Shown here piece after piece: positions 3,567 to 24,023 of a DNA stretch of 64,000 nt. The notes under the pieces were generated by a model, which saw only the letters and a list, made by a program, of their open reading frames with translations, ran no database searches and was not told the DNA's origin. Made by a program: the position numbers and the translations under genes. The DNA is from a virus: IMG/VR virus record IMGVR_UViG_3300008266_000015. One strand, written 5' to 3'. Numbering within the stretch: position 1 is the first letter of the stretch; every line of letters starts with the position of its first letter.

Positions 3567-3679
3567 AGTCAGGTGGCGGAATTGGTAGACGCTCATTCTT
3601 ATGTATATGTTATAAACGCATAAGATGATAAAAATCGAGATAACAGGTAGGTTTACAGGTTCGAATCCTGTCCTGACTA
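3567..3679 (+). ncRNA. tRNA-like element t1 (113 nt, no canonical anticodon arm)
   Basis: Acceptor AGTCAGG/CCTGACT, D-arm GCGGAATTGGTAGACGC, T-arm ACAGG-TTCGAAT-CCTGT; centre is a long TCTTATG/CATAAGA hairpin plus about 27 extra nt. Confidence 0.8.
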
Positions 3680-3681
3680 CA

Positions 3682-3905
3682 ATGAGTAAGAGATACTCAG
3701 CAGACTTGTCAATGTCTCATTTAAACTTGATAGGGTATTAGACTGGACATCCTGAAACGCCAGTCTCGTGGGAATAAAGGGACAGCACAAACCCTCCCAG
3801 TAGTGTGATTTTAGAGTTCATGTGGTAAGACACTAATGGTTAGAGTTTTTAAGAAAACAAAACCGTTAAAATCCACTCACCAGTAATCTCAAGGTGGGGA
3901 AACAT
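3682..3905 (+). ncRNA. Candidate structured ncRNA B between t1 and t2
   Basis: No long ORF; successive hairpins TGAGTA/TACTCA, AGACTGG/CCAGTCT, TGGGA..AGGG/CCCT.CCCA, TAGTGT/ACACTA, AATGGTT/AACCGTT, CTCACC/GGTGGG. Confidence 0.55.
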
Positions 3906-3982
3906 AGTCAGGAGTGTAATGAGGCATGGTGCCAAGTCCTTTTAAAGGTTACTTATTACAGGTTCGAATCCTGTCCTGACTA
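3906..3982 (+). ncRNA. tRNA-like element t2 (77 nt, D-arm consensus lost)
   Basis: Same acceptor stem and T-arm; centre has GGCA/TGCC and AAGT.CCTT/AAGG..ACTT hairpins. Confidence 0.75.
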
Positions 3983-3997
3983 CTAAATAAATAAATA

Positions 3998-4855
3998 ATG
4001 AAATTTAAACTACTAAAATTAATCCCATTAAATGTATTTCTAAAATTTAGAATATGGGTAATATGTAAATTCTTACCTTATCTTTTAAACAACGAAAGAA
4101 CACCTTATTCTAAAGATGGATATGAATTATCATTTAAAGATGATTTTGATGAATTTAATAAATCAATTTGGCAAGACATGCCATATTTTGGACATAGATT
4201 TCATCCAGGCAATATTGTAAATAATGGAACTGCACCTTATCAATATCATGATTCAAGTTGTATATCTGTAAAAGATTCTATACTTAGATTAGAATGTAAT
4301 GATACACCTACCACTATTAACTATGTTGATTATAATGGAGATTATTATGGAACATTTAAAATACCATACCAAGTTGGTTGGATACAAACCATGCCTAATA
4401 CATTTCAACAAAAATATGGTTATTTTGAAATTAGATCAAAATCTCCAAATAGTGGTGGAACTTGGCCAGCGTTTTGGTTAGCATCTACTGAGGCTTGGCC
4501 TCCAGAAATTGATATATTTGAAATTTATACTTCTGATGGTCAAACACGATCTACCTCAACTATTCATTGGGGAAAAGATCCAAAACATCCAATGACTGGA
4601 TTTGGTCATACAACACTACCGTTAAATTCTGATTTCTCAGTGTTTGGATGTGATTGGAATGAAAAAAATATTAAAATATATTATAACGGTTGGTTAGTTA
4701 GAGTTTTTCCTACACCAAATGATTTTAAATATGAAATGAATATTATTATTAACAATGGTGTTCAAACTGATGAAACAGGTTTAAATAGAGAAAGCATAAT
4801 ATCACCAAATTATTTTGAAGTAGATTATGTAAAAGTTTGGAAAAAAATAAAATAG
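3998..4855 (+). CDS. Glycoside hydrolase family 16 protein
   Basis: YGYFEIR, GTWPAFW, catalytic EIDIFE and FEVDYVKVW motifs. Confidence 0.9.
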   Translation: MKFKLLKLIPLNVFLKFRIWVICKFLPYLLNNERTPYSKDGYELSFKDDFDEFNKSIWQDMPYFGHRFHPGNIVNNGTAPYQYHDSSCISVKDSILRLECNDTPTTINYVDYNGDYYGTFKIPYQVGWIQTMPNTFQQKYGYFEIRSKSPNSGGTWPAFWLASTEAWPPEIDIFEIYTSDGQTRSTSTIHWGKDPKHPMTGFGHTTLPLNSDFSVFGCDWNEKNIKIYYNGWLVRVFPTPNDFKYEMNIIINNGVQTDETGLNRESIISPNYFEVDYVKVWKKIK

Positions 4856-4938
4856 TCAGGTGTCTGAATTGGCTAAGTACCCTGAGCCCATCTTAGTAAT
4901 GGGTAGGGGAGATACAGGTTCGAATCCTGTCCTGACTA
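4854..4938 (+). ncRNA. tRNA-like element t3 (85 nt; 7-nt loop CT-TAG-TA on an elongated stem)
   Basis: Same acceptor and T-arm; CCCT-GA-GCCCAT-CTTAGTA-ATGGGT-AGGG hairpin; overlaps the GH16 stop codon. Confidence 0.75.
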
Positions 4939-4955
4939 CAAAAAGAATTAAAATT

Positions 4956-5171
4956 ATGAAAGGTGCAATGACATTAAAACATCGTAAAAATATTGTAAGA
5001 GAAGTGAAATCTCGTATCAGTAAAGAGATTAAGGATTACAACGATAAAGAAGTTGGACAACAAGAATCTATTCTTGATGAATATATTGAAAAAGTATGTG
5101 TTGAAAAGGGATGGGAATTAGTTCATTTTTATTGTGAAGAAGGAAAAATTTTAGATAAGATATTAAAATAG
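4956..5171 (+). CDS. Hypothetical protein (start corrected from 4860)
   Basis: ATG after an A-rich leader just downstream of t3; its TAG stop overlaps t4. Confidence 0.65.
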   Translation: MKGAMTLKHRKNIVREVKSRISKEIKDYNDKEVGQQESILDEYIEKVCVEKGWELVHFYCEEGKILDKILK

Positions 5172-5268
5172 TCAGGTGGCGGAATTGGTAGACGCAGTTA
5201 GTTATAAGCACCAATAAGACTTGTAACAACGTACCGATAGTATGCAGGTTCGAATCCTGTCCTGACTT
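5170..5268 (+). ncRNA. tRNA-like element t4 (99 nt)
   Basis: Same acceptor and D-arm as t1; GTTATAAG/CTTGTAAC stem with an 11-nt loop; GTAC/GTAT variable arm; T-stem kept by a G-U pair. Confidence 0.8.
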
Positions 5269-5282
5269 CAAAAATAAATAAT

Positions 5283-5519
5283 ATGAGACGATTAAACGAA
5301 AATGAGTATCTAATTTTAGAAAATTGGAAAAATGTTAAAATTGAAGATTGTGATTTAGGTATACAATTATGGTGTAATAATTTGGTTGGTAAGGGTATTT
5401 TGCGTAGATATAACAAACAATACATTTTAACAAAATTAGGAAAAAAACATACTGAGATTGGTAGACCAAAATTTACATGGGTACAAAATGATTGGTTCGA
5501 AAGTGTTGAGTTATTATAA
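5283..5519 (+). CDS. Hypothetical protein, possibly winged-helix-like
   Basis: LVGKGIL...YILTKLGK pattern; lies between t4 and t5. Confidence 0.6.
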   Translation: MRRLNENEYLILENWKNVKIEDCDLGIQLWCNNLVGKGILRRYNKQYILTKLGKKHTEIGRPKFTWVQNDWFESVELL

Positions 5520-5522
5520 AAT

Positions 5523-5630
5523 AGTCAGGTGGCGAAATGGTAGACGCTAGAAAGAATGTAAAACAATTGAGTAATCTCTGCCAGTATCATTCACAGGGGT
5601 TACATACAGGTTCGAATCCTGTCCTGACTA
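5523..5630 (+). ncRNA. tRNA-like element t5 (108 nt)
   Basis: Same acceptor and T-arm; D-arm GCGAAATGGTAGACGC; GTAATCTCTG/CAGGGGTTAC 10-bp stem in the centre. Confidence 0.8.
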
Positions 5631-5631
5631 C

Positions 5632-5993
5632 AAAAGGGGTTCTTTGACATAATAAGAAAGGAAAATTAATATGGAAACAATGTATTTTACTTTTGGAGTA
5701 CTAACGATGGTTGCTATGATTTTGGTTGGAGCAATTGTTTATGGTATTGTAAAGGTGTTTAAACAAGAAAAACAAATCAAAGATATCCAAAAGGATATTC
5801 AATGGAATTATAATGATATGAGTGATCGATTTAGAGATGTTTATCAGAAAATTGAAAACAGTTATGTAAATTCTAGAGACATATCTAACGCATATACAGA
5901 TATGCGGATTGATAAACTGGAAGACAAATTAACAGGAAATAGCACAAAAAAATTAATTAAAGGATAAATTTAACCCGTCGAAGAACCCTTTTT
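5632..5993. repeat. 17-bp long-range inverted repeat enclosing one gene
   Basis: AAAAGGGGTTCTTTGAC (5632-5648) pairs with GTCGAAGAACCCTTTTT (5977-5993); both mismatches are G-U. Confidence 0.75.
5671..5967 (+). CDS. Single-pass membrane protein with a coiled-coil tail
   Basis: Hydrophobic N-terminal helix followed by a charged helical region. Confidence 0.7.
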   Translation: METMYFTFGVLTMVAMILVGAIVYGIVKVFKQEKQIKDIQKDIQWNYNDMSDRFRDVYQKIENSYVNSRDISNAYTDMRIDKLEDKLTGNSTKKLIKG

Positions 5994-6008
5994 TATATAT
6001 TTATTAGT

Positions 6009-6275
6009 ATGGGAAAAATTTGTTTTTCAATCGTTTTTTTATTAACAGTATGGGGTTGTAAAACTAATACATTTTATACTGATCATATTATAGTTACAAA
6101 AAATGATGGATATAAAGATACTATCCAATATTCGTATTGGAATAAATTTGAAATGGATGCTTTCAAATTAGAATGGATATTAAAACAAAAAAATATCAGA
6201 ATGAAAGATGTGCAATTTATAGATTTTACCCAAGGACCAAAAATTGAATTTAACAAAAAATACCAACCCAAATGA
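6009..6275 (+). CDS. Putative lipoprotein
   Basis: Hydrophobic leader ending VWGC. Confidence 0.5.
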   Translation: MGKICFSIVFLLTVWGCKTNTFYTDHIIVTKNDGYKDTIQYSYWNKFEMDAFKLEWILKQKNIRMKDVQFIDFTQGPKIEFNKKYQPK

Positions 6276-6883
6276 AGTTATTTTTAAACACATTACTGTT
6301 TTTGATTTACATAACAGGCTATAGTCAATCATTACAACTGGAGATAGTAGATAATTGTTCCTCAGGATACGTAGTTATCAATAACGATGAATCACCCGTC
6401 GGATATACAATGATTCATAATGGTGTAGATATATTATGTATTCTCCCCACAACAACAGATACTATATTTGATTTACCTAGTGGAGAATATATATTACGTT
6501 CTAATGGTGAAGCACATGAACAAGTTTCATTTACTATTTCAAACACAGTTATAGACGCTACATTACATATCCCATATACCTCAGTTTGTATTGGAGATTC
6601 ATATATAACACCGATTTTAAACATTTACTCCTCATATAATAATGTCTATTGGGATTTTGGTGATGGAAACATTTCATATGATGATATCAATCCAGTTCAC
6701 TACTATACTCAACCAGGTATATATACCTTAAAAGCAATAGTAAGTGAAGGTCAATGCTCTAAAATATTTGAAAGTAAGATTGTAGTTGAAAATATAAATG
6801 GAATTCAAGCCACAAATCGATTACAATACAGAACAACTAGTAACTATTATAATGTAGAAGGTAAAGTAGTAAAAAAACTATGA
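6272..6883 (+). CDS. Secreted PKD-domain protein
   Basis: Signal peptide; YWDFGDG...PVHYYTQPGIYT PKD signature; ends YYNVEGKVV. Confidence 0.8.
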   Translation: MKLFLNTLLFLIYITGYSQSLQLEIVDNCSSGYVVINNDESPVGYTMIHNGVDILCILPTTTDTIFDLPSGEYILRSNGEAHEQVSFTISNTVIDATLHIPYTSVCIGDSYITPILNIYSSYNNVYWDFGDGNISYDDINPVHYYTQPGIYTLKAIVSEGQCSKIFESKIVVENINGIQATNRLQYRTTSNYYNVEGKVVKKL

Positions 6884-7059
6884 ACAACGATATTGAACGT
6901 AAAGAGTTTTGGGAAAAAGAGCTATCCAAAACTAAATCAAAAAAATGGGATGACAACGATTTAGAACAAGCATTTGTTTCGGCAAGAAAGTTATTTCAAA
7001 ACAAGTTACCACAATTTGAAACGTTTTATGACTATAAAAAGTCATTAGTTAATAAATAG
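6880..7059 (+). CDS. Hypothetical protein, 59 aa (not in ORF track)
   Basis: ATGA overlap with the upstream gene; stop is the TAG of repeat 7057. Confidence 0.6.
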   Translation: MNNDIERKEFWEKELSKTKSKKWDDNDLEQAFVSARKLFQNKLPQFETFYDYKKSLVNK

Positions 7060-7103
7060 GATTACAAGATCTATATCTGTATATTCAAGCAAATAAAAGT
7101 TAT

Positions 7104-7316
7104 ATGTTTAAATGGTTTAAAAAACAAGATAAGGACGAAAACAATACGGAAATGCTCGTATCAGAAATGGATGCGGTTGCAATAGCATTAGAACAGTCAC
7201 GTGAAGAAGGTTTAGATGTTGAGGTTGTAACATGGGCACTTCGATACATGAAGGAAAATCCATCACTCACCATATCGGAAGCAATTACAATGGGATACTA
7301 CGAGTGGGTTAAATAA
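7104..7316 (+). CDS. Hypothetical protein
   Basis: Directly behind repeat 7057. Confidence 0.65.
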   Translation: MFKWFKKQDKDENNTEMLVSEMDAVAIALEQSREEGLDVEVVTWALRYMKENPSLTISEAITMGYYEWVK

Positions 7317-7385
7317 CAGACCAAGTTGATATTTATAACGGAACAGGTTGTGTGAACAAGTTTACTAACTTAACACACTATTCCC

Positions 7386-7595
7386 ATGAAATATCTAATT
7401 ACTCTGCTATTGATATTTACTATATCGTGTAGTCAAGATTTCAACAAACCACGCTATCAGAAAATAATTAAAACACGACCTCACTGGCAACGGAAACAAA
7501 TTCCGTTTTACAGACAAGGAACATATCGTGATCGTAACGTGAAAAAACAAGCAAGACAGAAATTAATTCAACCGCCAACAATTAATATTAATTGA
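7386..7595 (+). CDS. Small basic lipoprotein
   Basis: Leader ending TISC; TATTTATA upstream. Confidence 0.5.
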   Translation: MKYLITLLLIFTISCSQDFNKPRYQKIIKTRPHWQRKQIPFYRQGTYRDRNVKKQARQKLIQPPTININ

Positions 7596-7654
7596 AAAAT
7601 TAGGATTACAGGATTTACATTTGTATATTCAAGCAACCTAAAAAAATAAAAGTT

Positions 7655-8467
7655 ATGTTAGAAAATTTGATTATTACACCTAAACGAGGTAGAGGTAGAC
7701 CAGCAAAAGACGCAACACAAACTATGTCAGCATTTAATCCTGAAGAAGTTAAACTAATCAGAGGCGAATCATTGAAATTCAATGAAGCACTATTTGTACC
7801 TTTCAAAACAGGTACCGAATTTGATCTAATTTTATCAACCGATGGTGGTTTAATGCCCGGCACATCGATGATGATTGCTGGTGGACCAGGATCAGGTAAG
7901 TCAACATTAGTAACAGATATGTTATCTAAGTTTACAAAGCAAGGTTTGAAATGCTTGTTAATACAAGGCGAAATGGATGAAATTGGGCATTACAAATATT
8001 GCCGAAGAATGCCTTCATTTGGTTGTGTTCAGACATTGTTTTTGAAAAACCACATGGATAACGTGAAAGAAACATTAGAATATGTTTTTAACTTAGGTTA
8101 CGACGTTATTGCAATTGATTCACTTGCGGAGGTATTAGCAATGTATCGCGATCAAAACGGTGGTTCAGCAAAACAAGCCGAATCATGGCTATTGAAATTA
8201 CAAGATTCAGTTAAAAAAGGAAACAACGCATTAGGTTATTATACATCGTTTGTTAATATTCAACAAATGACGAAAAGCGACGAGTTTGCGGGTTCAAACA
8301 GGTTAAAGCATATGATGGAAGCATATTGCGCAGTTGAACGTAGCAAAGATGGACTTGAACGTTCAATGCATTTCGAAAAGAATCGTGATTGCGATAAAGA
8401 TTACAAAATCTACTTTTCAATATATAAGGACGGAGTTCATTACGCTTTAAATCAAGCAGAAGAATAA
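7655..8467 (+). CDS. RecA-superfamily (RadA/Sms-like) ATPase with an N-terminal AT-hook
   Basis: GGLMPGT, Walker A GGPGSGKST, Walker B IAIDS, QMTK..FAGSNRLKHM, KNR; N-terminal KRGRGRP. Confidence 0.8.
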   Translation: MLENLIITPKRGRGRPAKDATQTMSAFNPEEVKLIRGESLKFNEALFVPFKTGTEFDLILSTDGGLMPGTSMMIAGGPGSGKSTLVTDMLSKFTKQGLKCLLIQGEMDEIGHYKYCRRMPSFGCVQTLFLKNHMDNVKETLEYVFNLGYDVIAIDSLAEVLAMYRDQNGGSAKQAESWLLKLQDSVKKGNNALGYYTSFVNIQQMTKSDEFAGSNRLKHMMEAYCAVERSKDGLERSMHFEKNRDCDKDYKIYFSIYKDGVHYALNQAEE

Positions 8468-8523
8468 AAACGGGGAGTACACGCTCCCCTTTCATATATT
8501 CAAGTAAATAAAAAAGATATATT

Positions 8524-9300
8524 ATGAAAAACCATTTCATTCCTATCGATAACAAAATCGATAAAGCAATTGCATTTGCTCAATCATTAGATAACAAATC
8601 GTTTCGTACACGAAACCGAATTAAACAACCCTCAGCATATATTGATACGCTGAGTGTTGTTCAGAATCTACAACAACAAGGTTGGGAAATAACAGGAGTA
8701 TGTGAACAACGCGGTAAAGATAGAAAAATATCAAACAACTATGTTCAATTGGAACACCCTGACTTTAAAATGATGAATAAAAACAAAGTCGAAGGTATAT
8801 CAAATATCTATGTTTCAAATAGTTGCGACGGAAGAAAACCGCTTAATTTAGATTTCGGAATGTATCGTTTAGTTTGTTCAAACGGATTGATTCAACGTAC
8901 CCCGTATATTGAACATAGAATTAAACATACACCGCAAAGTATTGAACGATTGCCAATGATTATGCAAAGTGTAAATAGCGCAGCACAAAGAGTCCTTAAA
9001 AGATTCGATTCATTAAAAACAAAGGAATTGAAACCTGCACAGCTGGAGGAACTAGTAAATAAAGCAGCACGTTTAAGATTTGACGATGACGTGATGGATG
9101 CTTCTCAACTACTCACTGTATATCGAGATGAAGATAAAGGAAACGATTTATGGTCGGTATATAACAGGATTCAAGAAAATTTAATCAAAACAAATATGTT
9201 ACTAGATCGTAACGGACGACCGTTAGCAGGAGTAAACGATGTTAAAAGCGACATTGTTTTAAATCAAGCATTATTTGGATTGATAGAAAATTATGCTTAA
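8524..9300 (+). CDS. DUF932/DUF945-family protein, paralogue 1
   Basis: NSCDG...FGMYRLVCSNGL and DLWSVYNRIQE motifs. Confidence 0.8.
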   Translation: MKNHFIPIDNKIDKAIAFAQSLDNKSFRTRNRIKQPSAYIDTLSVVQNLQQQGWEITGVCEQRGKDRKISNNYVQLEHPDFKMMNKNKVEGISNIYVSNSCDGRKPLNLDFGMYRLVCSNGLIQRTPYIEHRIKHTPQSIERLPMIMQSVNSAAQRVLKRFDSLKTKELKPAQLEELVNKAARLRFDDDVMDASQLLTVYRDEDKGNDLWSVYNRIQENLIKTNMLLDRNGRPLAGVNDVKSDIVLNQALFGLIENYA

Positions 9301-9357
9301 AAATTAGGATTACAAAATCAATTATCATATATTTAATCAAACGAAAAAATAAAAGTT

Positions 9358-10158
9358 ATGCTAGATCTAAATTCAAACACATTCCTTAGTAAGGAGCAAA
9401 TTAAATCAAAAGCAAATTCGATTTTTGCTACTAAAGGTGCTGAAAACACCTCACAACACTATTCACACATTCCAACATTCAAAATCATTGAAGATATGGA
9501 ATTGTTAGGATGGAAAGTTTCTGATGTTAAAGAGGTTAAAGCGCGTAAAAACGCTGGATTCCAAAAACATTTAGTTGTATTTCGTAATGAGGAAATTGTT
9601 ATTGATGGTAAAGATGGAGACACAGTATTTCCACAAATCCTATTAACAAATAGTTCAGACGGAAAAAATGCATTTACATTCCGTGCCGGACTTTTCCGTC
9701 TTGTATGTGAGAATGGTTTAGTTATTTCAACACAGGATTTTGCTGATTTAAAAATCAGACATATGGGTTATGACTTTGAAAAGTTACAGAAAACCATTAC
9801 CAATATTGTTGAGAAACTTCCACTCACAGTTGAGTCAATGAATCGTTTTAAAGAAACACAATTGGAGGAGGAACAAATCCTACAATTCGCTAAAGATGCA
9901 CTTACAGTACGTTTCGGTGAAGAGGAAATGGAACGCATTACAATTGATTACACTACATTTATTCAACCAACACGTAGAGAAGATGCAGGAAATGACTTAT
10001 GGTCAGTGTTTAACCGCATTCAAGAACGAGTAATGGATGGAGATTTCCAATACAGTTATGCAGCCAAAATACGTAAAGCACGTAAAATCAAGAACTTCAA
10101 TCAAGATTTAGATTTGAATTCAAGACTATATGAGTTAGCTACCACATATTGCCTATAA
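9358..10158 (+). CDS. DUF932/DUF945-family protein, paralogue 2
   Basis: YSHIPT, NSSDG...AGLFRLVCENGL, RREDAGNDLWSVFNRIQE. Confidence 0.85.
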   Translation: MLDLNSNTFLSKEQIKSKANSIFATKGAENTSQHYSHIPTFKIIEDMELLGWKVSDVKEVKARKNAGFQKHLVVFRNEEIVIDGKDGDTVFPQILLTNSSDGKNAFTFRAGLFRLVCENGLVISTQDFADLKIRHMGYDFEKLQKTITNIVEKLPLTVESMNRFKETQLEEEQILQFAKDALTVRFGEEEMERITIDYTTFIQPTRREDAGNDLWSVFNRIQERVMDGDFQYSYAAKIRKARKIKNFNQDLDLNSRLYELATTYCL

Positions 10159-10168
10159 AAAATAAATT

Positions 10169-10197
10169 GGGGAGCTTGGACTACAAGTTCCCCTTTT
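10169..10197 (+). terminator. Terminator hairpin overlapping the promoter repeat (similar at 8472, 18489, 26034, 26382)
   Basis: GGGGAGCTTG-GACTA-CAAGTTCCCC-TTTT. Confidence 0.7.
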
Positions 10198-10219
10198 ATA
10201 TATTTAAAATAAAAAAGTT

Positions 10220-10982: not shown

Positions 10983-11317
10983 TGAGCGGAGGAGCATTTG
11001 ATTATAATCAATCTCGCATTCAATATATAATTGAAGGCATTGAAGAGGAAATTGAAAAAAATGGAAAGAAAATCGACTACGAACCGGGATACAAAAGATA
11101 TGAATGGGAATCAGAATACCATTACGAATATCCACCTGACATTATTGAGGAATTTAAAAATGGAATACGCATACTAAAACAAGCATATGTCTATGCTCAG
11201 CGAATTGATTGGCTACTATCAGGAGATGATAGAGAAGATTCATTTCGTAAACGATTGAAAGAGGATTTAGCACAATTAAACCCACCTACTTTTTGGGGTG
11301 AAGAAAGCGGATACTAG
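10982..11317 (+). CDS. Hypothetical phage protein
   Basis: Coupled ORF (MSGGAFDY start); stop lies in repeat 11315. Confidence 0.7.
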   Translation: MSGGAFDYNQSRIQYIIEGIEEEIEKNGKKIDYEPGYKRYEWESEYHYEYPPDIIEEFKNGIRILKQAYVYAQRIDWLLSGDDREDSFRKRLKEDLAQLNPPTFWGEESGY

Positions 11318-11360
11318 GATTACAAAATCTTTAGTTGTATATTTAGGTAAATAAAAAATT

Positions 11361-11726
11361 ATGGAAAGAATAGAAATTAATGGAGTATGGTATGTTAAAG
11401 AAGATACCATACAAAAAGAAAGTACTATATTAGAGCCTACTCATTTTGAAGGATACTCTGTAGAAAATGATGATTTTATTTTTGAAGCAACTATTATATT
11501 TAAAGATGATGGTACTCCTTATTATGGTATTACTATTGAATGTACTGATAAAAGATTCCCAGATAGGAATAATTGGAAAGTAGAACATTGGGATAATGAT
11601 AATTGGTTAAGAGGTATATTAAACAATAATCCTGATTCATGGAAAGAATTACCTGAAATGAGTAGTGGAGATATTCATTTTTTACAAACATTTTTACAAT
11701 ATTTAAAAGATAAAGAATGGTTATGA
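11361..11726 (+). CDS. Hypothetical protein
   Basis: Behind repeat 11315. Confidence 0.7.
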   Translation: MERIEINGVWYVKEDTIQKESTILEPTHFEGYSVENDDFIFEATIIFKDDGTPYYGITIECTDKRFPDRNNWKVEHWDNDNWLRGILNNNPDSWKELPEMSSGDIHFLQTFLQYLKDKEWL

Positions 11727-11971
11727 AAGAAACACTTGAAGAAGCTGCTGAAAAGTATGCTAAACAATTTGATTATGCAGAAGATTCTTCACCACCAATA
11801 GATTTTGTTGAAGGTGCTAAATGGCAACAAGAAAGAATGTATAGTGAGGAAGAAGTATTAGAGTTATTACTAAAACATCAATCTGATTATAGGAGTTCCG
11901 TAAGAAATACATCTCCTTTGGATTGGAGTTTTGATATTAAAGATTGGTTTGAACAATTTAAAAAGAAATAA
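11723..11971 (+). CDS. ETLEEAA-family modular protein, copy 1
   Basis: MKETLEEAA / EGAKWQQERMYSE / FEQFKKK blocks shared with 13452 and 19186. Confidence 0.8.
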   Translation: MKETLEEAAEKYAKQFDYAEDSSPPIDFVEGAKWQQERMYSEEEVLELLLKHQSDYRSSVRNTSPLDWSFDIKDWFEQFKKK

Positions 11972-12787: not shown

Positions 12788-13455
12788 AAAACATACACGT
12801 AATAAACCAAAACATCTACATCACTAATGATGAAGAAATTAAAGAAGGGGATTGGGTTATTTATAAAAATAAAGTTTTTAAGATAGGAATAGGTGATAAT
12901 GAACTTTTTCATTTAAGTAAAAAAATCATCCTAACAACAGACCAAGATTTAATCAAAGATGGTGTACAAGCTATTGAAGATGATTTTCTTGAATGGTTTG
13001 TCCAAAATCCAAGTTGTGAGGAGGTTGAAGTACAATGCAGATATAATTTTTATGCAGGTCAAGATTTAACACATTACAAAATAATCATTCCAAAAGAATC
13101 TAAACTAATTAATAACTGTCCTAAGTGTGGTTTAGATTTAATCATAAGAGAACATTGTACACCAATTTGTACAGATATTGATTGCCGTGGTATTATACTT
13201 AGTAATGAAACATTAAGAGAATGGGCATCAAAAAAAGAATCTAAACAAGAAACACTTGAAGAAGCAATGGAAAGTTATTTAGATTCTCCTACGCCCCACT
13301 CATACAAAAGAGCAGTAAAATTTGGTGCTAATTGGCAACAAAAACAGATATTAGAATTTCTTTATTTAGAAATAACAGAACGTAGAGATTATTCAGCATC
13401 TAAAATGTGTGAAAAGGTAATAGAGTTTATTGAACAATTAAATACTAAGAAATGA
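12784..13455 (+). CDS. Mosaic hypothetical protein with a Zn-ribbon insert and a C-terminal ETLEEA module
   Basis: CPKC..C..C insert flanked by KESK; ends KQETLEEA...FGANWQQ. Confidence 0.7.
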   Translation: MKNIHVINQNIYITNDEEIKEGDWVIYKNKVFKIGIGDNELFHLSKKIILTTDQDLIKDGVQAIEDDFLEWFVQNPSCEEVEVQCRYNFYAGQDLTHYKIIIPKESKLINNCPKCGLDLIIREHCTPICTDIDCRGIILSNETLREWASKKESKQETLEEAMESYLDSPTPHSYKRAVKFGANWQQKQILEFLYLEITERRDYSASKMCEKVIEFIEQLNTKK

Positions 13456-13715
13456 AAGAAACACTTGAAGAAGCTGCTGCTAGACATTTTAATAAAGAAG
13501 ATTTAGTTGAAGGTGTTAATATTCAATATGTACTTCAATGTGCTTTTATTGAAGGTGCTAAATGGCAACAAGAAAGAATGTATAGTGAGGCAATTGAGTT
13601 TGCTGAGTGGATTAGAATTAAAGATTTCCAAACTGCATCTAAAGATAATTGGATTGGTTTAGATATGAAATACTTTACAACAGAAGAATTGTTTGAACAA
13701 TTTAAAAAGAAATAA
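13452..13715 (+). CDS. ETLEEAA-family modular protein, copy 2
   Basis: Shared constant blocks. Confidence 0.8.
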   Translation: MKETLEEAAARHFNKEDLVEGVNIQYVLQCAFIEGAKWQQERMYSEAIEFAEWIRIKDFQTASKDNWIGLDMKYFTTEELFEQFKKK

Positions 13716-16898: not shown

Positions 16899-16910
16899 AA
16901 AATAAAGGTT

Positions 16911-17234: not shown

Positions 17235-17285
17235 GATTACAAGATTTACAAACGTATATTTAATCAACTTAAAAAAATAAAAGTT

Positions 17286-18478
17286 ATGAAAAACGAAAAA
17301 ACAGAACGCATTGAAAGTCTTATAGATCTATCAGCACTTGCTTGGTTCAATACAGCAGCAAACACAATTGTTGTGGATATGATGAATGAAGGATGGGAGT
17401 ATAGTGATGCAAGAGAATATCTATTTGATAAAATTGATGAAATCATTGAAGCACATAAAAGACAAGATCGATTGGAAAATAAATTCTCCCCACTAATTGG
17501 AAAAAAATGTATTGTAATTGATGAGGTAATAGAGAAAAATAATGTAAAAATACATACAATTAGTGGAATTGGAGAAAATGGTGGATTGTGTTTTGAAGAT
17601 TACAATGGGGAAACTATTTTTTGTTTTGAATATGATGAAGACTTATTTGTAGAAGGATACAAAGCATGGATTCATCCAGATGAAGTATCTATTCAACTAA
17701 TAGATTAGGATTACAAAGTTTACGTTCATTTATTTAAATAAAAAAATAAAGGTTATGAAAAAAACATCTCAATCAATAGATGGAACATCGTTCCACAATG
17801 TAGTAGTTAAATGTTCATTATCAACCCTAACAAAAGTATTAGGCAATCCCGATTGTTCAGGAAATGATGGTGAGAATAAGATCAATTTTGAATGGGAAAT
17901 GGAAACAAATGACGGAGATGTATTTACAGTATATGACTGGAAGGAATATAGATCATTGAATGAAAATGAACTAATCGAATGGCACATTGGTGGAACAAGT
18001 AGGAGTATAACTGAACAAGCCGCTCGTGAAATTAGGGATGCAATAGCAAAAATCTAAAGTGTTAGGATTACAAGATTTATAAACGTATATTTAATCAACT
18101 TAAAAAACATAACTTATGACTGAATTAGAAAATTTAAAAATCGAGCTATTTAATCTTGTTGAACGTGTTAGTGCGCTATCAACTAAAAATGAAGGAACAT
18201 TTTCATTCACAAAAGAACAACTACTAAGCTATTCAAAGTTTCTAATTGATGAAGCGGTTGAAAGCATAACAACCGGTATTAAAAATGATATAACTGAAGA
18301 TTCGTTAGATGAAGTAATTGAATTAGAAATGGGTTATAATAGAGATATACGAGTTACAATTGATGAAAGAGGATTCCATAGCCAAATAGTTTCAGTGATT
18401 GAAGATTCAGTTGATTCAAACATAGAGGATTCAGTTGCTAGCGCTTTGGAACATGTGTTTCCAACCACTCAAGATTAA
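17286..18478 (+). CDS. Three single-gene cassettes, hypothetical (17286-17708, 17755-18057, 18116-18478)
   Basis: Each is preceded by the promoter repeat and an A-rich leader. Confidence 0.7.
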
Positions 18479-18535
18479 AATAAATAAAAGGGTAGTTCAT
18501 TAGGACTACCCTATTTTTATTTGTATATTTACAGT

Positions 18536-18954
18536 ATGAAAGAAGATAAGAAGATAAATGGATTAAGTGAACGTCACATTGCACAAATAGTACGACGTAA
18601 AATGATTCAACGCTTCAAACCATCAGCAAAAGTATATAAACGCAACAAAAACAAAAACACAGAGCTATGAGACAACTAATCGGAAAATTTGAAGTAGTGG
18701 ATTCAATGGGGAATCTTAAGACACTAAAAGTATTTACAAACCGCGAAGAAGGTACTGTGGGGTTCTCCTTAACATCCAAATCAGGGACTTCGTTTTCAAT
18801 CAGCAATATGCAATGTGGATGGAGAGGACCACACCTACCTGATAACACATATGAATATCCAACTAACAAAGCACTAATGAAAGCAGTGAAAGAGGCTGTA
18901 AATGGAGGTGTTTGTAAAGTACAAGAAGAGAAATTATTTATTGATGTAATTTAA
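18536..18954 (+). CDS. Small basic 44-aa ORF (18536-18670, not in track) coupled to hypothetical 18667-18954
   Basis: ATG behind repeat 18501; ATGA overlap. Confidence 0.6.
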
Positions 18955-19185
18955 AAATAATGGTTATGAAAGAATTAATGTATAACCCAAGTACTGGTGA
19001 TTTATTAGCAACTAAAGCTAAAACAGATGGGAAAGTGTATCAAAGTTACTTAACTAAAGGATATATTAAAATTGGTTGGGTTGATGGGTTTAATGTAGTG
19101 GTTGGAGGAATTGGAGTTAAATTATAATTTATTAGGATTACAAGTTAAATTAATGTATATTCAATTAACTTAAAAAATAAAGATT

Positions 19186-19425
19186 ATGAAAGAAACACTT
19201 GAAGAAGCTGCTGAAGAATTTATAAAAGGTTGGGGTGGTTTAACTGACTCTAAAAATTCATTTATTGAAGGTGCTAAATGGCAAGCTGAAAGAATGTATA
19301 GTGAGGAAGATTTAATTAGTTTTGCACACTTTTATTTCACAGAAGAATTTAATTCAACAATGCAAACTTCTAAATCAACAGATAAAATTTTACAAGAATG
19401 GTTTGAACAATTTAAAAAGAAATAA
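19186..19425 (+). CDS. ETLEEAA-family modular protein, copy 3
   Basis: Shared constant blocks. Confidence 0.8.
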   Translation: MKETLEEAAEEFIKGWGGLTDSKNSFIEGAKWQAERMYSEEDLISFAHFYFTEEFNSTMQTSKSTDKILQEWFEQFKKK

Positions 19426-19426
19426 T

Positions 19427-20493
19427 ATGAAAGTATTTAGATTTACAACAGAGGTACAATCCATTAAAACAATACAATATATTATTGAAGCTGAAAATAA
19501 AGAAGAAGCAGCTAAAATACTCCAAAGCGGAAGTGAACGTGATGAAGGTGAAGAGATTGATGAAGATATCTATTGGGGAACAGAAACAATTATAGAAAGT
19601 AAACTAATTGAGGAACTATGAACGAACTAAAAATACATGGCTACTATCAGTGGTCCAATGCTTGTGGTTATGGAGTGATCCTTTCCGATTGTGGAGACTC
19701 AGCAAAGCTGGTACTTGAAAATCAATCAACAACTGATTGGTTAGAAATTGAATATGTTTTTAACGAGGACACTGATGGATTTGATCCAATCATTGATCCA
19801 AGTAGATACAACGTGCCTTTAAATTTGGTAATGCGAGCTTACTAGGACTACAAAGTTTATTACTGTATATTTAAACAACTTAAAAAACGTAAAAAGATGA
19901 AAAAATCAAATTCAAGTGTGTTTGTAAACACAACTATTACGAAACAATTCCCTAACGGACCAAAAGTAACTGCTGAATTTCAAACCATTGTTTGTTTGAA
20001 TAAAAGTGATGATTGGGTTATTGATTGTATTGAGCCAATGGATATTAATGAAATTGAAATGATGGGAAAAACAATCACCGATTATGAAAATAAACGTAAT
20101 ATAATTGAACATTTCAAATTAATGGGAGTTGATTTATGGGACGAAGTTGAAACGGATATGCAGAAAATCATTGATGCGAATAGTGATGCAGTTACGTTTG
20201 TAAAAGAACAAACCGGAATTATATTACCAACAAAACAAAGCAAACCAAATGATGTTGTTGAATTAACAAGACAGGAATTGGAATATGTAATAATTATGAA
20301 TGATCTAAAACAGCAATTCGGTTCATTAGGTTACTACAACGATAAACGAAAAACAACACGTCGCATCAAGATATATTCAGGTCCAAAAGAAGCAATTCAA
20401 AGATACATGTATAAAAAATATCCACATATCAAAACATATTTCAATGTTGGATATCCATGGTCAAGTGGATTATGTTTTAGGTTACCACTTTGA
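19427..20493 (+). CDS. Hypothetical genes 19427-19621 (start corrected), 19618-19845 and 19897-20493
   Basis: Coupled or repeat-preceded ORFs. Confidence 0.7.
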
Positions 20494-20500
20494 TAATAAT

Positions 20501-20524
20501 GGGGACGTAAACGTCCCCTTTTTT
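20501..20524 (+). terminator. Rho-independent terminator
   Basis: GGGGACG-TAAA-CGTCCCC-TTTTTT. Confidence 0.8.
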
Positions 20525-20730
20525 ATTTTACTAGGACTACAAGGTTTACATTCGTATATTTAAGTATAAGAAAAAAAAGATATGAAAACTAAAACGAAAC
20601 AACAGATACTAGCTGAGATGCTACAAAAAGAATTAAACTCAACAGAACAAATGTGGGAAGAAGGTAAATCACATGCCTTCATAATTGGATATTTAAAAGG
20701 TCTAATCAAAATAACCATTTCAGAACTAAA

Positions 20731-21039
20731 ATGATATATCTACCTATAGCAACTCAACATATCCCACCTGCCATTGCAAATACAAGTCAAGGTAGATACG
20801 CTATAATGGATGGTAAATGGTACGAAATTGGACAAACCATTACATTGGAGTTTGTTAGGAAACATTGGAAACCAAAACCAATTGAAACTAATTCAATTAA
20901 AACATTTGCTATTAAGAGCTCGAATGGAAAAGAACAGTACACCGTTACTGTGAATGGGAAATATTGGCAATGTAATTGTCCGAGTTGGAAAAACCCATGT
21001 AAACACATTGGTATAGCTAAAGCTCAAATTAAGGAATAG
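20731..21039 (+). CDS. SWIM zinc-finger protein
   Basis: YTV...WQCNCP....CKHI. Confidence 0.8.
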   Translation: MIYLPIATQHIPPAIANTSQGRYAIMDGKWYEIGQTITLEFVRKHWKPKPIETNSIKTFAIKSSNGKEQYTVTVNGKYWQCNCPSWKNPCKHIGIAKAQIKE

Positions 21040-21089
21040 GACTACAGAATTTACAGTTGTATATTTAAGTAAACGAAAAAATAAAAGTT

Positions 21090-22098
21090 ATGAAAAGCAA
21101 ATTCACTCAGGTTTCATCAAATGAAATCAAACTAGAATTAATCCATAATTATTTGACTCAATGTGATCGTTCATTTCTATTAATAGAGCAAAATAGAGGT
21201 GTGTATAGTATAGGTAGGGCTGTTCAACTATATCAGTTGGATGGGCTTAAGAAAGAACACATCAAGGAATTAGCGTGGACAAAGGATGATAATCATGGTG
21301 GAATGAGAGACTCAGATGCACACCATAAAGGACTCACAACATTAGATGGTTGTAAAAGTGTAGCATTGGATTATTTGGAAAAAATATTAGGAGTAGAAAT
21401 TGAATAGGATTACAAGTTAAACAGTTGTATATTTAATTAACTTAAAAAACAAAAGTTATGAAAACGACAGAACTAAAACAAGGATACTCAATCTTTGGGA
21501 ACAAAGGAAATGTATGGAGCAATACAGCTCATATCTACAAAAGTGGAACAGGGAACTTATGTGGTACACCTGCACTATCAAATAACTGGGCTAGGATTGA
21601 ACAAGTAGAGCATGTTGGATGTCCGGAATGTTTAGAAAAGTATAAATTAGAAAACTAAATATATGTACATAGCAATTAATAAAGCAAACCATTTGGAATT
21701 TCATAGTTTCGAATGGACGGAAGATGACAGGTTGATTGTGAATGGAGAAGAAGTAAAACCTGAAGAATGGGATATAGTAGAGGTATCAATGGTATATCAG
21801 GATTATTGTTGTTAAAAAAATAAAGGTTATGACAAGAAAACAATTCCACAAAGCAATCAACAAAGATGTATATGAATATATGAATCAACACTATCCCGAA
21901 TTCGACATTGATGATAGTGAAGGATATGGTCGTGTGTATTTTGTGGATACCACATCCTCTAAACCATGGGATGATAGTATAGAATACCATCAATCAAGAC
22001 ATGATTTGTGTACACTGAATGGAGCTAGTGATAAGGTAAAAGCCGTTGAGCAAGAACTTGAGAGTTGGATAAACGCTTTAATTAAACAATATCAATAG
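21090..22098 (+). CDS. Hypothetical cassettes 21090-21407, 21458-21658 (H..LCG..CPEC, metal-binding) and 21829-22098
   Basis: Repeat-delimited ORFs. Confidence 0.7.
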
Positions 22099-22148
22099 GA
22101 TTACAAGGTTTATAAGCGTATATTTAGTCAACCTAAAAAATAAAAGTT

Positions 22149-22373
22149 ATGAAAACAAATGTAAACTTAGAAATGTATCAAAACATTGATAGCATTTCAG
22201 AAAAACTAACAACAAGGATTACACAGTTAGAACTACTAATTGATGAATATTGTGAGAGATTCGTAACTTCACATGAAGATTTAGAACAAGTTACTAAATT
22301 CAACGAAATGTTAAATGACTTGTATGAGGATCTAGATTCAATTACTGAGGTTAAAAGCGTGTTATATAATTAA
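22149..22373 (+). CDS. Acidic helical protein, paralogue of 23649-23873
   Basis: MKTNVNLEMY...MLNDLYEDL...VLYN, same length. Confidence 0.75.
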   Translation: MKTNVNLEMYQNIDSISEKLTTRITQLELLIDEYCERFVTSHEDLEQVTKFNEMLNDLYEDLDSITEVKSVLYN

Positions 22374-22427
22374 TTAGGACTACAAATTAAACAGTTGTAT
22401 ATTTAATTAACTTAAAAAACATAAAAA

Positions 22428-23414
22428 ATGAAAATAACTAAAGCAAATAAGCTCCCCGGAACACAATATTTAGAACTATTAGATGTAGCAAAGTATTTAC
22501 GTGCAGTGTACGTTAGTGCCTTGACAGAAGTAGAAAAACAACATTACAGAAGAGTATATACTGAAGCTAGAACAAATGGATTACGTAGTAAAATGGTAGG
22601 TGCTACCTCGTTTAAAGCAATGGATAAGGTAATGAAAGTAGCTCAAAATGAATATCCACATTTGGACATTAAAATTGCAAAGAATAAACCAATGTATTCA
22701 TTTGCATTACATGGTGTTAATATATTTGTTAAAGTAAAAAAATAGGAATACCCTTTAATTAATCATATATTTAAGTAAACGAAAAAATAAGAGTTATGAA
22801 AATAAAAGACCTAATTAAACACCTCGAAACATTAGATCAAGAAAAAGAACTAGTTGTGATTGCAACGGACCCAACAGATTGGGACTATGGTTTAGTTGTA
22901 AATGAAACAACAATTAGATTGGAGGAGATCTGGCCTTCTGAGGAGAATGGATTAGAAGAAGAATTAGGTGAACCTGATTACCATCATGATAAAGGAATTG
23001 ATTGTTATGTTATTAGATTAGATTGTTAGGATTACAAAATAAACAATAGTATATTTAAATAAAAATAAGATATGACAATATTATTAATTTGGTTAGGTGG
23101 ATTTCTATTAGGAGCTGGGATCACATTATTTATTACAAACAAAAAGCAACAATAATATTCAGAATATGAAAATATATCAAGTATATAGTGGGGAAGAGGA
23201 TAAACATGGATTCCAGAGAGAATACTACATAGCAACATATGTTAGTAAGGAAAAAGCATTACAACATTGTGAACGTATAGTGGAGGAAACTCCATTGTAT
23301 GGGGATAAATTAGAGGAGGTAGAAGGGAGTTGGGGAAAATGTTGGGATGCTATTGGGTGGGGTAGAGTAACGATTTGTGCTTTATATGAGAGGGAAGTGA
23401 ATGTGGAGGTATGA
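22428..23414 (+). CDS. Hypothetical cassettes 22428-22745, 22796-23029 and 23166-23414
   Basis: Repeat-delimited ORFs. Confidence 0.7.
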
Positions 23415-23419
23415 CAAGT

Positions 23420-23580
23420 TCGTATATATGGATATATGGATATACGTATAGTTGGGAGTATGTGACCTAGGGATCAACGGGAATGGGGTGCAGGGATTGG
23501 GGAGACACAACCCCTTCCCACACCTCCCCACCCCACTTTGCATCGACAAAATATATATGTATATACAACGACACACGCAA
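23420..23580. other. Non-coding G-tract/C-tract element flanked by TATATA arrays
   Basis: GGG-AAT-GGGG-TGCA-GGG-ATT-GGGG (23479-23502), then CCCC-TT-CCC-ACACCT-CCCC-A-CCCC (23511-23534). Confidence 0.6.
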
Positions 23581-23648
23581 AATACAGTAAAACTTGCGGG
23601 GATTACATGGTTTTTTAACATATATTTAACTCAATAAATAAAGAAAAT

Positions 23649-23873
23649 ATGAAAACAGATGTTAATTTAGATATGTACAGAAACGTTGATATAATTTCAG
23701 CGGAACTAAAAATAGCTATTGATGCTCTTGAACAAGATGTTGATGATTTCTGTTCCAATTTTGTTAAAACACAAGAGGACTTGCAACTAGTTTCATTGTT
23801 CCAGTCCATGTTGAATGATTTATACAATGATTTGGAAAACATTAACAACATAAGAGGTGTATTATACAACTAG
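23649..23873 (+). CDS. Acidic helical protein, paralogue of 22149-22373
   Basis: MKTDVNLDMY...MLNDLYNDL...VLYN. Confidence 0.75.
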   Translation: MKTDVNLDMYRNVDIISAELKIAIDALEQDVDDFCSNFVKTQEDLQLVSLFQSMLNDLYNDLENINNIRGVLYN

Positions 23874-23950
23874 GAATACAAAAAATACGTTCGTATATTT
23901 ATCTCATAAGAAAAGCATTTAAAAACGTTTAATTAATTGATTAAGCATAT

Positions 23951-24023
23951 AGTCAGGTGGCGGAATGGATGGGCAACGTCAACTAATTAATAGATACAGG
24001 TTCGAATCCTGTCCTGACTACCA
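23951..24023 (+). ncRNA. tRNA-like element t6 (73 nt, encoded CCA, truncated anticodon arm)
   Basis: Same acceptor and T-arm, ends ACCA; only 16 nt between D-arm and T-arm; behind repeat 23871. Confidence 0.8.

What the first reader, a model, noticed from the sequence alone, without database searches (positions are those of the whole stretch)
3567..24023. Six tRNA-scaffold RNAs with an invariant acceptor stem/T-arm and unrelated central cargo
Seen: t1 3567-3679, t2 3906-3982, t3 4854-4938, t4 5170-5268, t5 5523-5630 and t6 23951-24023 all start (AT)AGTCAGG. All end TACAGGTTCGAATCCTGTCCTGACTAC; t4 has two substitutions, one giving a G-U in the T-stem and one changing the discriminator. Lengths are 73-113 nt. 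The D-loop-to-T-arm interval differs completely between copies yet folds into hairpins each time. None has a normal 5-bp/7-nt anticodon arm in the normal position; only t6 encodes CCA. Established: real isoacceptor sets differ in their acceptor stems, and the acceptor/T-arm top half is what RNase P, CCA-adding enzyme and EF-Tu recognise. Inference: these are not decoding tRNAs but a constant tRNA-like chassis carrying variable RNA modules. Possible roles are decoys for tRNA-targeting defence enzymes (anticodon nucleases, tRNA-modifying toxins), stabilised aptamers or antisense guides, or ribosome/synthetase ligands. This is the best candidate for an undescribed system here.
Basis: partly seen in the sequence, partly recalled or inferred. 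Interest (0 to 1): 0.92.

Follow-up and report, generated by a model that had tools for sequence, protein, structure and literature searches.

The report
Phage tRNA-shaped RNAs carrying variable inserts
This uncultured phage of a Bacteroidota host carries six genes for RNAs that keep the ends and elbow of a leucine tRNA but hold six unrelated inserts where the anticodon arm should be; they belong to a very large phage RNA family that I could not find described and whose job is unknown.

Summary
Six + strand elements share a 7-bp acceptor stem (AGTCAGG/CCTGACT) and a T arm; none is expected by chance. They are not decoding tRNAs. ARAGORN calls one of six, implausibly, and Rfam's tRNA model matches only through the ends.

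The same 23-nt 3' module occurs in over 120 IMG/VR phage contigs. From these and other fetched loci I collected 218 distinct elements of 57-196 nt, falling into 190 insert classes. RNA-level selection shows as compensatory changes in the acceptor stem, the T stem and insert hairpins. Within an insert class, inserts are 89% identical while the flanks are unrelated. Phages almost never carry the same insert twice.

Five elements lie in one operon behind a single phage promoter, packed against ORFs and two conserved non-coding RNAs. They carry the same U(-1) and C74 context as real tRNAs of related phages.

Best reading (about 50%): a natural "tRNA scaffold". Host tRNA-processing enzymes would cut the operon at these elements and release stable small RNAs whose inserts are the working parts. 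The targets are unknown.

This scan has reported the same family before on other genomes. I found no publication describing it. New here: t2 belongs to a separate conserved class, and the ORF packing, the promoter layout and the non-redundancy of inserts are now quantified.

The parts
3362..3410 (+). Copy of the phage promoter-like repeat (TAGGATTACA, about 14 nt, GTATATTTAA) that heads the t1-t5 transcription unit
   Evidence: about 30 copies in the window. One lies here and the next is at 7053, so there is no internal copy between t1 and t5. Promoter function is inferred from its position in front of most small ORFs.
3413..3566 (+). Conserved non-coding leader RNA ('rnaA') ending at the 5' end of t1
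   Evidence: homologues in L090, L020, L063 and L067. There they follow a tRNA-like element (L090) or lie just downstream of a tmRNA (L020). An 8-bp AACCUGU/GCAGGUU helix is invariant and a second helix covaries. An optional insert of about 72 nt is present here.
3567..3679 (+). t1: 113-nt tRNA-Leu-type frame; insert is a 10-11-bp hairpin with a 13-nt loop plus a tail
   Evidence: (Rfam tRNA 38.7 bits through the ends only).
3680..3905 (+). Conserved 226-nt non-coding RNA ('rnaB') filling the gap between t1 and t2 exactly
   Evidence: 97% identical in L057, where it sits between two canonical tRNAs. More distant homologues occur in seven further loci (L061, L135, L022, L081, L016, L017, L105), most starting right after a tRNA or frame 3' end (AC then AATGAGTAAGAGAT...). 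No Rfam match.
3906..3982 (+). t2: 77-nt minimal member of a separate conserved tRNA-like class (GGCAUGGUGCC hairpin instead of a Leu D arm)
   Evidence: 38 IMG/VR stretches matched the class motif, 36 of them elements of this class. Changes on both sides occur at pair 1:72, at three T-stem pairs and at two pairs of the D-like hairpin. An apical site holds 3 to about 45 nt.
3998..4855 (+). ORF for a GH16 glycoside hydrolase between t2 and t3; its TAG stop overlaps U(-1)A1G2 of t3
   Evidence: PF00722, E 2e-14. The ATG lies 15 nt after the t2 discriminator.
4854..4938 (+). t3: 85 nt, altered D region; insert is an extended helix capped by a 7-nt loop CUUAGUA
   Evidence: (20.9 bits, below threshold).
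4956..5171 (+). 71-aa ORF between t3 and t4; its TAG stop overlaps the start of t4
   Evidence: no family match.
5170..5268 (+). t4: 99 nt, Leu-type D arm, G49-U65, discriminator U; insert is an 8-bp hairpin plus a small hairpin
   Evidence: (40.2 bits).
5283..5519 (+). 78-aa ORF between t4 and t5
   Evidence: no family match.
5523..5630 (+). t5: 108 nt, Leu-type D arm; insert is a 10-bp hairpin with a 13-nt loop after a 23-nt A-rich stretch
   Evidence: (38.4 bits).
23869..23917 (+). Copy of the same promoter-like repeat, 34 nt upstream of t6
   Evidence: family D8, reference copy.
23951..24023 (+). t6: solitary 70-nt element plus encoded CCA; D region altered, no insert hairpin (15-nt linker)
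   Evidence: (36.8 bits). No relative of its centre in IMG/VR by exact 19-mer.

Best explanation
The six elements are genes for non-decoding, tRNA-Leu-derived RNAs. A frame (acceptor stem, D arm or D-like hairpin, T arm, tertiary core) gives the L-shaped top of a tRNA. A different insert replaces the anticodon and variable arms in each. Five are transcribed with two other non-coding RNAs and several small ORFs from one phage promoter; t6 has its own. Inferred mechanism: host RNase P cuts at the 5' side (U at -1). Host 3' tRNA-processing enzymes and the CCA-adding enzyme finish the 3' end, as for the genuine tRNAs of related phages. This releases each element as a stable, correctly folded small RNA. 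It would also cut the operon into separate RNAs, leaving t2-t4's downstream mRNAs with short A-rich leaders. The frame serves expression, folding and stability, as in the engineered 'tRNA scaffold'. The insert is the working part and acts on a target still unknown, most likely a host or phage protein or RNA. Shown: anatomy, family size, RNA-level selection on frame and inserts, operon layout. Inferred: processing, stability, and that the insert is the effector.
For: Not decoding: ARAGORN of 6, with an implausible arm. Rfam's tRNA model aligns only the ends. Intron mode gives scattered anticodons that disagree between members of the same insert class.

Family: the 23-mer hits more than 120 phage contigs. 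Together with other fetched loci that gave 218 unique elements in 190 insert clusters.

RNA-level selection: G-U and compensatory variants occur in the acceptor and T stems and in insert hairpins.

Insert specificity: within an insert class, insert identity is 0.89 against 0.43-0.46 for the flanks; unrelated flanks give 0.40. In 47 multi-copy loci, 134 elements fall into 133 classes.

Processing context: U(-1) is 81-85%, C74 90-97% and U48 86-95%, the same as in canonical tRNAs of the same contigs.

Packing: 37% have an upstream stop within -2..+20 nt and 30% a downstream ATG at 10-30 nt, against 5% for random positions.

One promoter copy lies before t1 and none until 7053; another lies before t6. 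In L057, rnaB is flanked by canonical tRNAs instead of frames.

The engineered tRNA scaffold has the same design and is processed and stable in E. coli (PMC3753655).
Against: Transcription, cleavage sites, CCA addition and stability are therefore all inferred.

No target or partner of any insert is known. No insert of this window except t2's has a relative among the loci I sampled.

Folding z-scores of the inserts alone are modest. t6 has practically no insert, so an 'effector insert' cannot explain it.

The near-constant acceptor sequence across very different phages is stronger than a generic scaffold needs. It hints at a sequence-specific partner that I did not find.
Confidence: 0.5

Rival explanations
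1. Pure punctuation: the elements are only processing signals that let tRNA enzymes cut a polycistronic transcript into mRNAs and small RNAs. The inserts have no function of their own beyond being a stable stem.
For: Tight packing against ORFs and non-coding RNAs. Stop codons formed by U(-1)A1G2. One promoter for the array. rnaB is flanked by real tRNAs in L057. t6-like copies almost lack an insert.
Against: Insert sequences, loops included, are conserved at 0.89 identity between phages whose flanks are unrelated. Genomes hold non-redundant insert sets, 133 classes in 134 elements. Inserts reach over 100 nt in streamlined genomes. t6 stands alone behind its own promoter, with no upstream ORF to separate from.
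Confidence: 0.15
2. Aminoacylation is the point: the frame keeps the leucine identity set, which does not need the anticodon. The RNAs would be charged by host LeuRS and act as charged molecules, for example tmRNA-like on ribosomes, as amino-acid donors, or by tying up LeuRS or EF-Tu.
For: Leucine identity is A73 plus the tertiary core (U8-A14, A15-U48, G18/G19 with the T loop), and the anticodon arm is dispensable for charging (PMC2377443). The frame keeps U8 96%, A14 88%, A15 87%, U48 86-95% and A73 85-92%. tmRNA shows that a tRNA-like domain with a large insert can work when the synthetase ignores the anticodon. Related arrays encode tmRNA.
Against: A73 is less conserved than in canonical tRNA-Leu of the same contigs (85% against 97%). 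t4 has U73, which costs about 45-fold in the cited study. The t2 class lacks the Leu D arm and has A or U at position 73. No L/F-transferase gene lies in the held 105 kb. The insert diversity is not explained.
Confidence: 0.12
3. Decoys for host enzymes that attack or modify tRNAs through the acceptor/T-arm half, such as defence nucleases or 3'-end-modifying toxins.
For: The acceptor/T-arm sequence is far more uniform in insert-bearing elements than in canonical tRNA-Leu genes from the same kind of contigs. It stays AGTCAGG beside dozens of tRNAs with other acceptor stems. That is what a sequence-specific partner would produce.
Against: No host tRNA with this acceptor/T arm was found. The 23-mer occurs in only 18 of about 185,000 species genomes, all metagenome-assembled and with no organism recurring. 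A decoy needs no variable, conserved insert.
Confidence: 0.08
4. DNA-level cassette borders: the constant ends are recombination sites, in the manner of integron attC sites or T4-type promoter-stem-loop cassettes, that shuffle small genes between phages.
For: Inverted constant ends with a variable centre of variable length, placed between small ORFs. Whole elements occur in unrelated contexts.
Against: The variants seen are G-U and compensatory pairs that make sense only in RNA. The T loop, D loop, U8 and U48 are tRNA tertiary-structure positions. What is conserved as a unit is the element itself, not the ORF beside it.
Confidence: 0.05
5. Real decoding tRNAs that carry introns or unusual anticodon arms, as proposed for the 'enigmatic introns' of Lak megaphage tRNAs.
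For: Lak megaphages of Prevotella, also Bacteroidota, are reported to have tRNAs with conserved inserts read as introns (PMC6784885). t3 keeps a 7-nt loop with UAG. A few relatives such as L224 look like tRNA-Leu(UAA) with a hairpin in the anticodon loop.
Against: Intron-mode ARAGORN gives anticodons spread over all amino acids, many with A34. It gives different ones for members of one insert class: L078 Tyr, L086 Lys, L118 Ser. Most elements have no residual anticodon stem. No RNA ligase or RtcB gene is in the held record.
Confidence: 0.04

Closest known systems
Engineered 'tRNA scaffold' for recombinant RNA (Ponchon and Dardel design; PMC3753655)
   Same: Acceptor stem, T arm and D arm are kept and the anticodon stem-loop is replaced by an arbitrary structured RNA. 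The chimera is recognised by cellular factors, processed precisely and protected from nucleases.
   Different: That is a laboratory construct built on tRNA-Lys or tRNA-Met. Here the design is natural, built on a tRNA-Leu-type frame, multi-copy, and embedded in phage operons. Processing and stability are not shown for it.
Phage T4 stable RNAs rnaC (species 1, 139 nt) and rnaD (species 2, 119 nt)
   Same: Small RNAs of unknown function encoded in a phage tRNA cluster. rnaC ends in a T arm (CCGGGTTCGAATCCCGG) and an acceptor-like helix followed by ACAA, with no anticodon arm.
   Different: No sequence similarity. The tRNA-like part of T4 rnaC is only its 3' 93 nt and scores 17.5 bits. T4 has two such RNAs, not a family with one frame and hundreds of inserts.
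tmRNA (RF00023)
   Same: A tRNA-like domain formed by the two ends, a large non-tRNA insert in place of the anticodon arm, and a synthetase that ignores the anticodon. tmRNA genes sit in the same arrays of related phages.
   Different: Alanine identity (G3-U70), pseudoknots and a tag reading frame define tmRNA. None of these is present, and Rfam gives no tmRNA match in the window.
'Enigmatic' tRNA introns of Lak megaphages (Devoto et al. 2019, PMC6784885)
   Same: Phages of Bacteroidota with tRNA-like genes that carry conserved inserts, sometimes with a second tRNA-like piece inside. I saw a nested T arm in L156.
   Different: The Lak cases were read as introns in tRNAs with assignable anticodons. 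Here no canonical anticodon arm can be rebuilt.
Canonical class-II tRNA-Leu of the same kind of phages
   Same: Nearly identical D arm, U8, U48, A73, T loop, U(-1) and C74 context.
   Different: Canonical copies are 80-86 nt with a UAA/UAG-type anticodon arm, a variable arm and diverse acceptor stems. The insert-bearing copies are 82-205 nt and mostly share one acceptor stem.

Membership tests
Decoding tRNA (Rfam RF00005, ARAGORN) | 7-bp acceptor stem, discriminator, 5-bp T stem with a GTTCGAATC-type loop | tested here: met
   All six.
Decoding tRNA (Rfam RF00005, ARAGORN) | 5-bp anticodon stem with a 7-nt loop at positions 27-43 | tested here: not met
   ARAGORN calls only t2, with a 3/5 mismatched stem. 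The CM alignments put 13-53 nt insertions there. The 7-nt loop of t3 is displaced.
Decoding tRNA (Rfam RF00005, ARAGORN) | Score above Rfam's gathering threshold (29 bits) | tested here: inconclusive
   t1, t4, t5 and t6 score 36.8-40.2 bits through the ends alone; t2 scores 26.4 and t3 20.9.
Phage tRNA-Leu-type frame-and-insert RNAs (unpublished; noted earlier by this scan) | AGTCAGG/CCTGACT acceptor stem, ACAGG/CCTGT T stem and GGTTCGAATCC loop | tested here: met
   Six of six (t4 has G49). The same module occurs in over 120 IMG/VR contigs.
Phage tRNA-Leu-type frame-and-insert RNAs (unpublished; noted earlier by this scan) | tRNA-Leu-type D arm (GGCGGAAT(T)GGTAGACGC) with U8 and U48 | tested here: met
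   t1, t4 and t5 fully; t3 and t6 altered; t2 is of another class.
Phage tRNA-Leu-type frame-and-insert RNAs (unpublished; noted earlier by this scan) | Centre of variable length and sequence, different in every copy of a genome | tested here: met
   Six elements in six clusters; family-wide, 133 classes in 134 elements.
tmRNA (RF00023) | Alanine identity pair G3-U70, pseudoknots, tag reading frame | tested here: not met
   Pair 3:70 is U-A. No Rfam or ARAGORN tmRNA call in the window.
tRNA gene with an intron (group I, bulge-helix-bulge, or Lak-type) | Removing one contiguous segment leaves a canonical anticodon arm with the same anticodon in orthologues | tested here: not met
   Intron-mode calls are scattered and disagree within insert classes. 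No group I intron match.
YrlA-type Y RNA (RF02553) | Permuted tRNA-like module inside a stem formed by the 5' and 3' ends | tested here: not met
   No match in the window. A 35-bit sub-threshold match exists in a relative's array, L081.
T4 rnaC/rnaD-like stable RNAs | Discrete stable RNA made by tRNA-processing enzymes from a phage tRNA-cluster transcript | not testable with these tools
   The genomic analogy holds. RNA data could not be obtained.

The most novel reading that the evidence does not exclude
Phages of freshwater Bacteroidota share a pool of hundreds of small RNA effectors (aptamers, decoys or sponges). Each is mounted on one tRNA-Leu-derived frame, so that the host's own tRNA enzymes manufacture it. 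Each phage carries a non-redundant hand of them, an RNA counterpart of the hypervariable anti-defence or host-takeover protein islands.
Probability: 0.3. Interest if true: 0.9.

Novelty: new variant of a known kind. Interest (0 to 1): 0.78.

Why it matters
If the reading is right, nature arrived at the 'tRNA scaffold' trick long before RNA engineers did. It uses the trick at scale: one frame, hundreds of inserts, exchanged between phages. That would open a large, unexplored class of phage non-coding RNAs, each insert being a candidate ligand for a host or phage factor. It would explain many 'pseudo' or 'undetermined' tRNA calls in phage genomes. It would show a tRNA-punctuation style of operon processing in phages like that of mitochondria. 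It would also offer ready-made, naturally optimised scaffolds for expressing RNAs in Bacteroidota.

Tried and rejected
- Close relatives of this phage through the GH16 protein: none in IMG/VR.
- Exact-motif scans for the inserts of t6 and t3: none, and one chance hit inside a coding region.
- Local BLAST of the six inserts against about 140 related loci: only t2 has relatives.
- Cultured or deposited phages (INPHARED): none carries the 3' module; the best hits are ordinary tRNAs at 86-96% over 24-29 nt.
- Bacterial genomes: the 23-mer occurs in 18 metagenome-assembled contigs, 9 of them Bacteroidota. No host tRNA source emerges.
- Antisense pairing of the inserts, rnaA and rnaB to the phage's own + strand: not above shuffled controls.
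- Intron-bearing tRNA reading: rejected.
- Phage-encoded CCA-adding enzyme, RNA ligase, RtcB, L/F-transferase: none in the held 105 kb, but the record is only about 65% complete.
- Within-genome homogenisation of ends: rejected. In other phages the t2-class copy has its own acceptor and T stem beside AGTCAGG frames.
- Known RNA families inside inserts or arrays: only tRNA and tmRNA, a near-threshold freshwater-1 match and a sub-threshold YrlA-like match.
- Literature: seven full-text searches found no description of this family.

Full report
**What is in the window.** The window is part of a 104,954-b IMG/VR virus record, estimated 65% complete. It encodes baseplate proteins of a tailed phage. 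It also encodes a protein with a CHU_C type-IX-secretion sorting domain at window 1-225, which points to a Bacteroidota host. In agreement, 9 of the 18 bacterial metagenome bins that hold the constant module are Bacteroidota.

A search with the 24-nt 3' constant finds these six and nothing else; no shuffle gave a match. The rest of the record has no further tRNA-like element and no ordinary tRNA.

**They are not decoding tRNAs.**
- ARAGORN calls only t2, with a poorly paired arm.
- Rfam's tRNA model reaches 37-40 bits for t1, t4, t5 and t6, but only by aligning the acceptor, D and T arms and treating the middle as a 13-53-nt insertion. t2 and t3 fall below threshold.
- With introns allowed, ARAGORN assigns anticodons scattered over all amino acids. 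It gives different ones to members of one insert class.
- MFE folds, with the acceptor and T arms constrained or not, give an acceptor stem, a T arm, in most a D-type arm, and one or two hairpins of odd size. t6 has a bare 15-nt linker instead.

**A very large family.** Up to nine copies lie in one locus. From the loci fetched by then (IMG/VR plus 18 MAG contigs and the window's own record) I extracted 218 distinct elements of 57-196 nt, and their centres fall into 190 clusters.

An independent scan anchored on the D arm avoids bias toward the 3' end. It gave 60 insert-bearing elements and 32 tRNA-Leu genes of canonical length. The insert-bearing ones mostly share AGTCAGG/CCTGACT and ACAGG/CCTGT. 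The canonical ones have diverse stems.

No deposited phage genome carries the module. Seven literature searches found no description.

This scan has reported the same family on other genomes. I treated those notes as leads only.

**Selection acts on the RNA.**
- Variants of the 5' strand opposite the fixed 3' strand are mostly G-U compatible.
- Copies with other acceptor or T stems carry matched changes on both strands.
- For the t2 class I gathered 24 distinct sequences. Six of the pairs outside P2/P3 (seven when P3's 31:91 is included) change on both sides, 96% of cells are paired against 28-43% when partners are slid, and no shuffle reached the covariation score.
- Insert hairpins also show compensatory changes.

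**The inserts look specific, not filler.** Within an insert class found in different contigs, median identity is 0.89 for the insert and 0.92-0.96 for the frame. It is 0.43-0.46 for the 80 nt on either side, which equals the unrelated baseline of 0.40. So frame plus insert is a discrete conserved unit in changing surroundings.

In 47 loci with two or more elements, 134 elements belong to 133 insert classes, while 20 classes recur between loci. Phages therefore collect non-redundant sets rather than duplicating copies.

**Layout and processing signals.** The window holds about 30 copies of a promoter-like repeat in front of small ORFs. One lies at 3362-3410, the next at 7053, and one at 23869-23917 just before t6. 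No convincing terminator lies between 3400 and 6400.

The order in the array is: promoter, rnaA, t1, rnaB, t2, GH16 gene, t3, ORF71, t4, ORF78, t5, ORF98.

Across the family, 37% of elements have an upstream stop codon within -2 to +20 nt and 30% a downstream ATG 10-30 nt after the discriminator. Random positions give 5% for each.

The base before A1 is U in 81-85%, position 74 is C in 90-97% and U48 is 86-95%. Canonical tRNAs of the same contigs show the same pattern. From my own knowledge, U(-1) is the base preferred by bacterial RNase P. The 'supplied stop codons' are simply U(-1)A1G2.

rnaB is 97% identical in L057, where it sits between two real tRNAs. Frames and tRNAs are thus interchangeable as its borders.

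**Best mechanism.** I read the elements as natural tRNA scaffolds. Host tRNA enzymes would release them, and at the same time cut the operon. The frame would give folding and stability, and the insert would be the effector. This matches the engineered scaffold, which keeps the acceptor, T and D arms, replaces the anticodon stem-loop, and is processed and protected in E. coli (PMC3753655). All RNA-level steps are inferred, because no read data could be obtained.

**Rivals.**
- Pure punctuation fits the layout but not the conserved, non-redundant inserts.
- Leucine charging is plausible in principle. Leucine identity is A73 plus the tertiary core, and the anticodon arm is dispensable for charging (PMC2377443). 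The frame keeps those positions. However, A73 is less conserved than in real tRNA-Leu (85% against 97%), t4 has U73, and the t2 class is not Leu-like.
- A decoy role would explain the unusually uniform acceptor stem but not the inserts.
- A DNA recombination site does not explain the G-U and tertiary-position conservation.
- The intron reading fails.

**Closest known.** These are the engineered tRNA scaffold; T4 rnaC, whose 3' 93 nt form a weak tRNA-like domain with a T arm; tmRNA; and the Lak megaphage 'introns'. None is a family with one frame and hundreds of inserts.

**Verdict.** The function is unknown. This is a new modular variant of phage tRNA-like RNAs, and I rate it of high interest.

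Noticed in passing
window 2486-28186 (about 30 copies, e.g. 7053-7101, 11311-11359, 21401-21449): A conserved promoter-like repeat (TAGGATTACA, about 14 nt, GTATATTTAA, then an A-rich leader of about 20 nt and ATG) precedes most small ORFs of the left half of the window. It matches neither the sigma-70 consensus nor the usual Bacteroidota consensus.
   Followed up: partly
window 3413-3566: rnaA is a conserved leader RNA with an invariant 8-bp helix, a covarying second helix, a possible pseudoknot (UACCCUU with AAGGGUA) and an optional insert of about 72 nt. Homologues lie in L090, L020, L063 and L067; in L090 and L020 they come just after a tRNA-like element or a tmRNA. No Rfam match.
   Followed up: partly
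window 3680-3905: rnaB is a conserved RNA of about 200-230 nt found in eight other phage loci, usually bounded on both sides by tRNAs or frames. Its 5' GAGUAAGAGAU can pair with a 3' AUCUC...UACUC. No Rfam match.
   Followed up: partly
window 1-225 (G000:35009-35254): A phage ORF ends in a CHU_C (type IX secretion, type B) sorting domain (E 3e-16), which suggests a Bacteroidota host and a phage protein exported by the host's T9SS.
   Followed up: partly
window 300-1670: A 456-aa ORF built of 14-residue (42-nt) tandem repeats that match YadA head repeats (E 1e-20). It is probably a fibre or adhesin.
   Followed up: no
L022:4124-4186: The tRNA array of a related phage holds a near-threshold match to Rfam freshwater-1 RNA (70.1 bits, threshold 72). 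This orphan motif therefore lives in phage tRNA arrays.
   Followed up: no
L081:11258-11367: A sub-threshold YrlA-like (Y RNA-like) permuted tRNA module (35 bits, E 3e-6 locally) lies in a related phage's tRNA array, overlapping another tRNA-like element.
   Followed up: no
L156 (184-nt element) and L149/L150 (205-nt elements): Some relatives carry a second T arm or tRNA-like piece inside the insert, or a 120-nt insert right after a CTTAA anticodon-like motif. This recalls the Lak megaphage 'intron that may encode a tRNA'.
   Followed up: no
window 11723-11849, 13452-13590, 19186-19306: Three small ORFs share near-identical N-terminal coding segments (up to 98% over 47 nt), so they form a paralogous small-protein family in the early-type region.
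   Followed up: no
window 8524-9300 and 9358-10158: Two adjacent DUF932 proteins lie next to a KaiC/AAA-like ATPase (7655-8467). A T5orf172/MUG113 nuclease-like ORF lies at 28873-29361.
   Followed up: no
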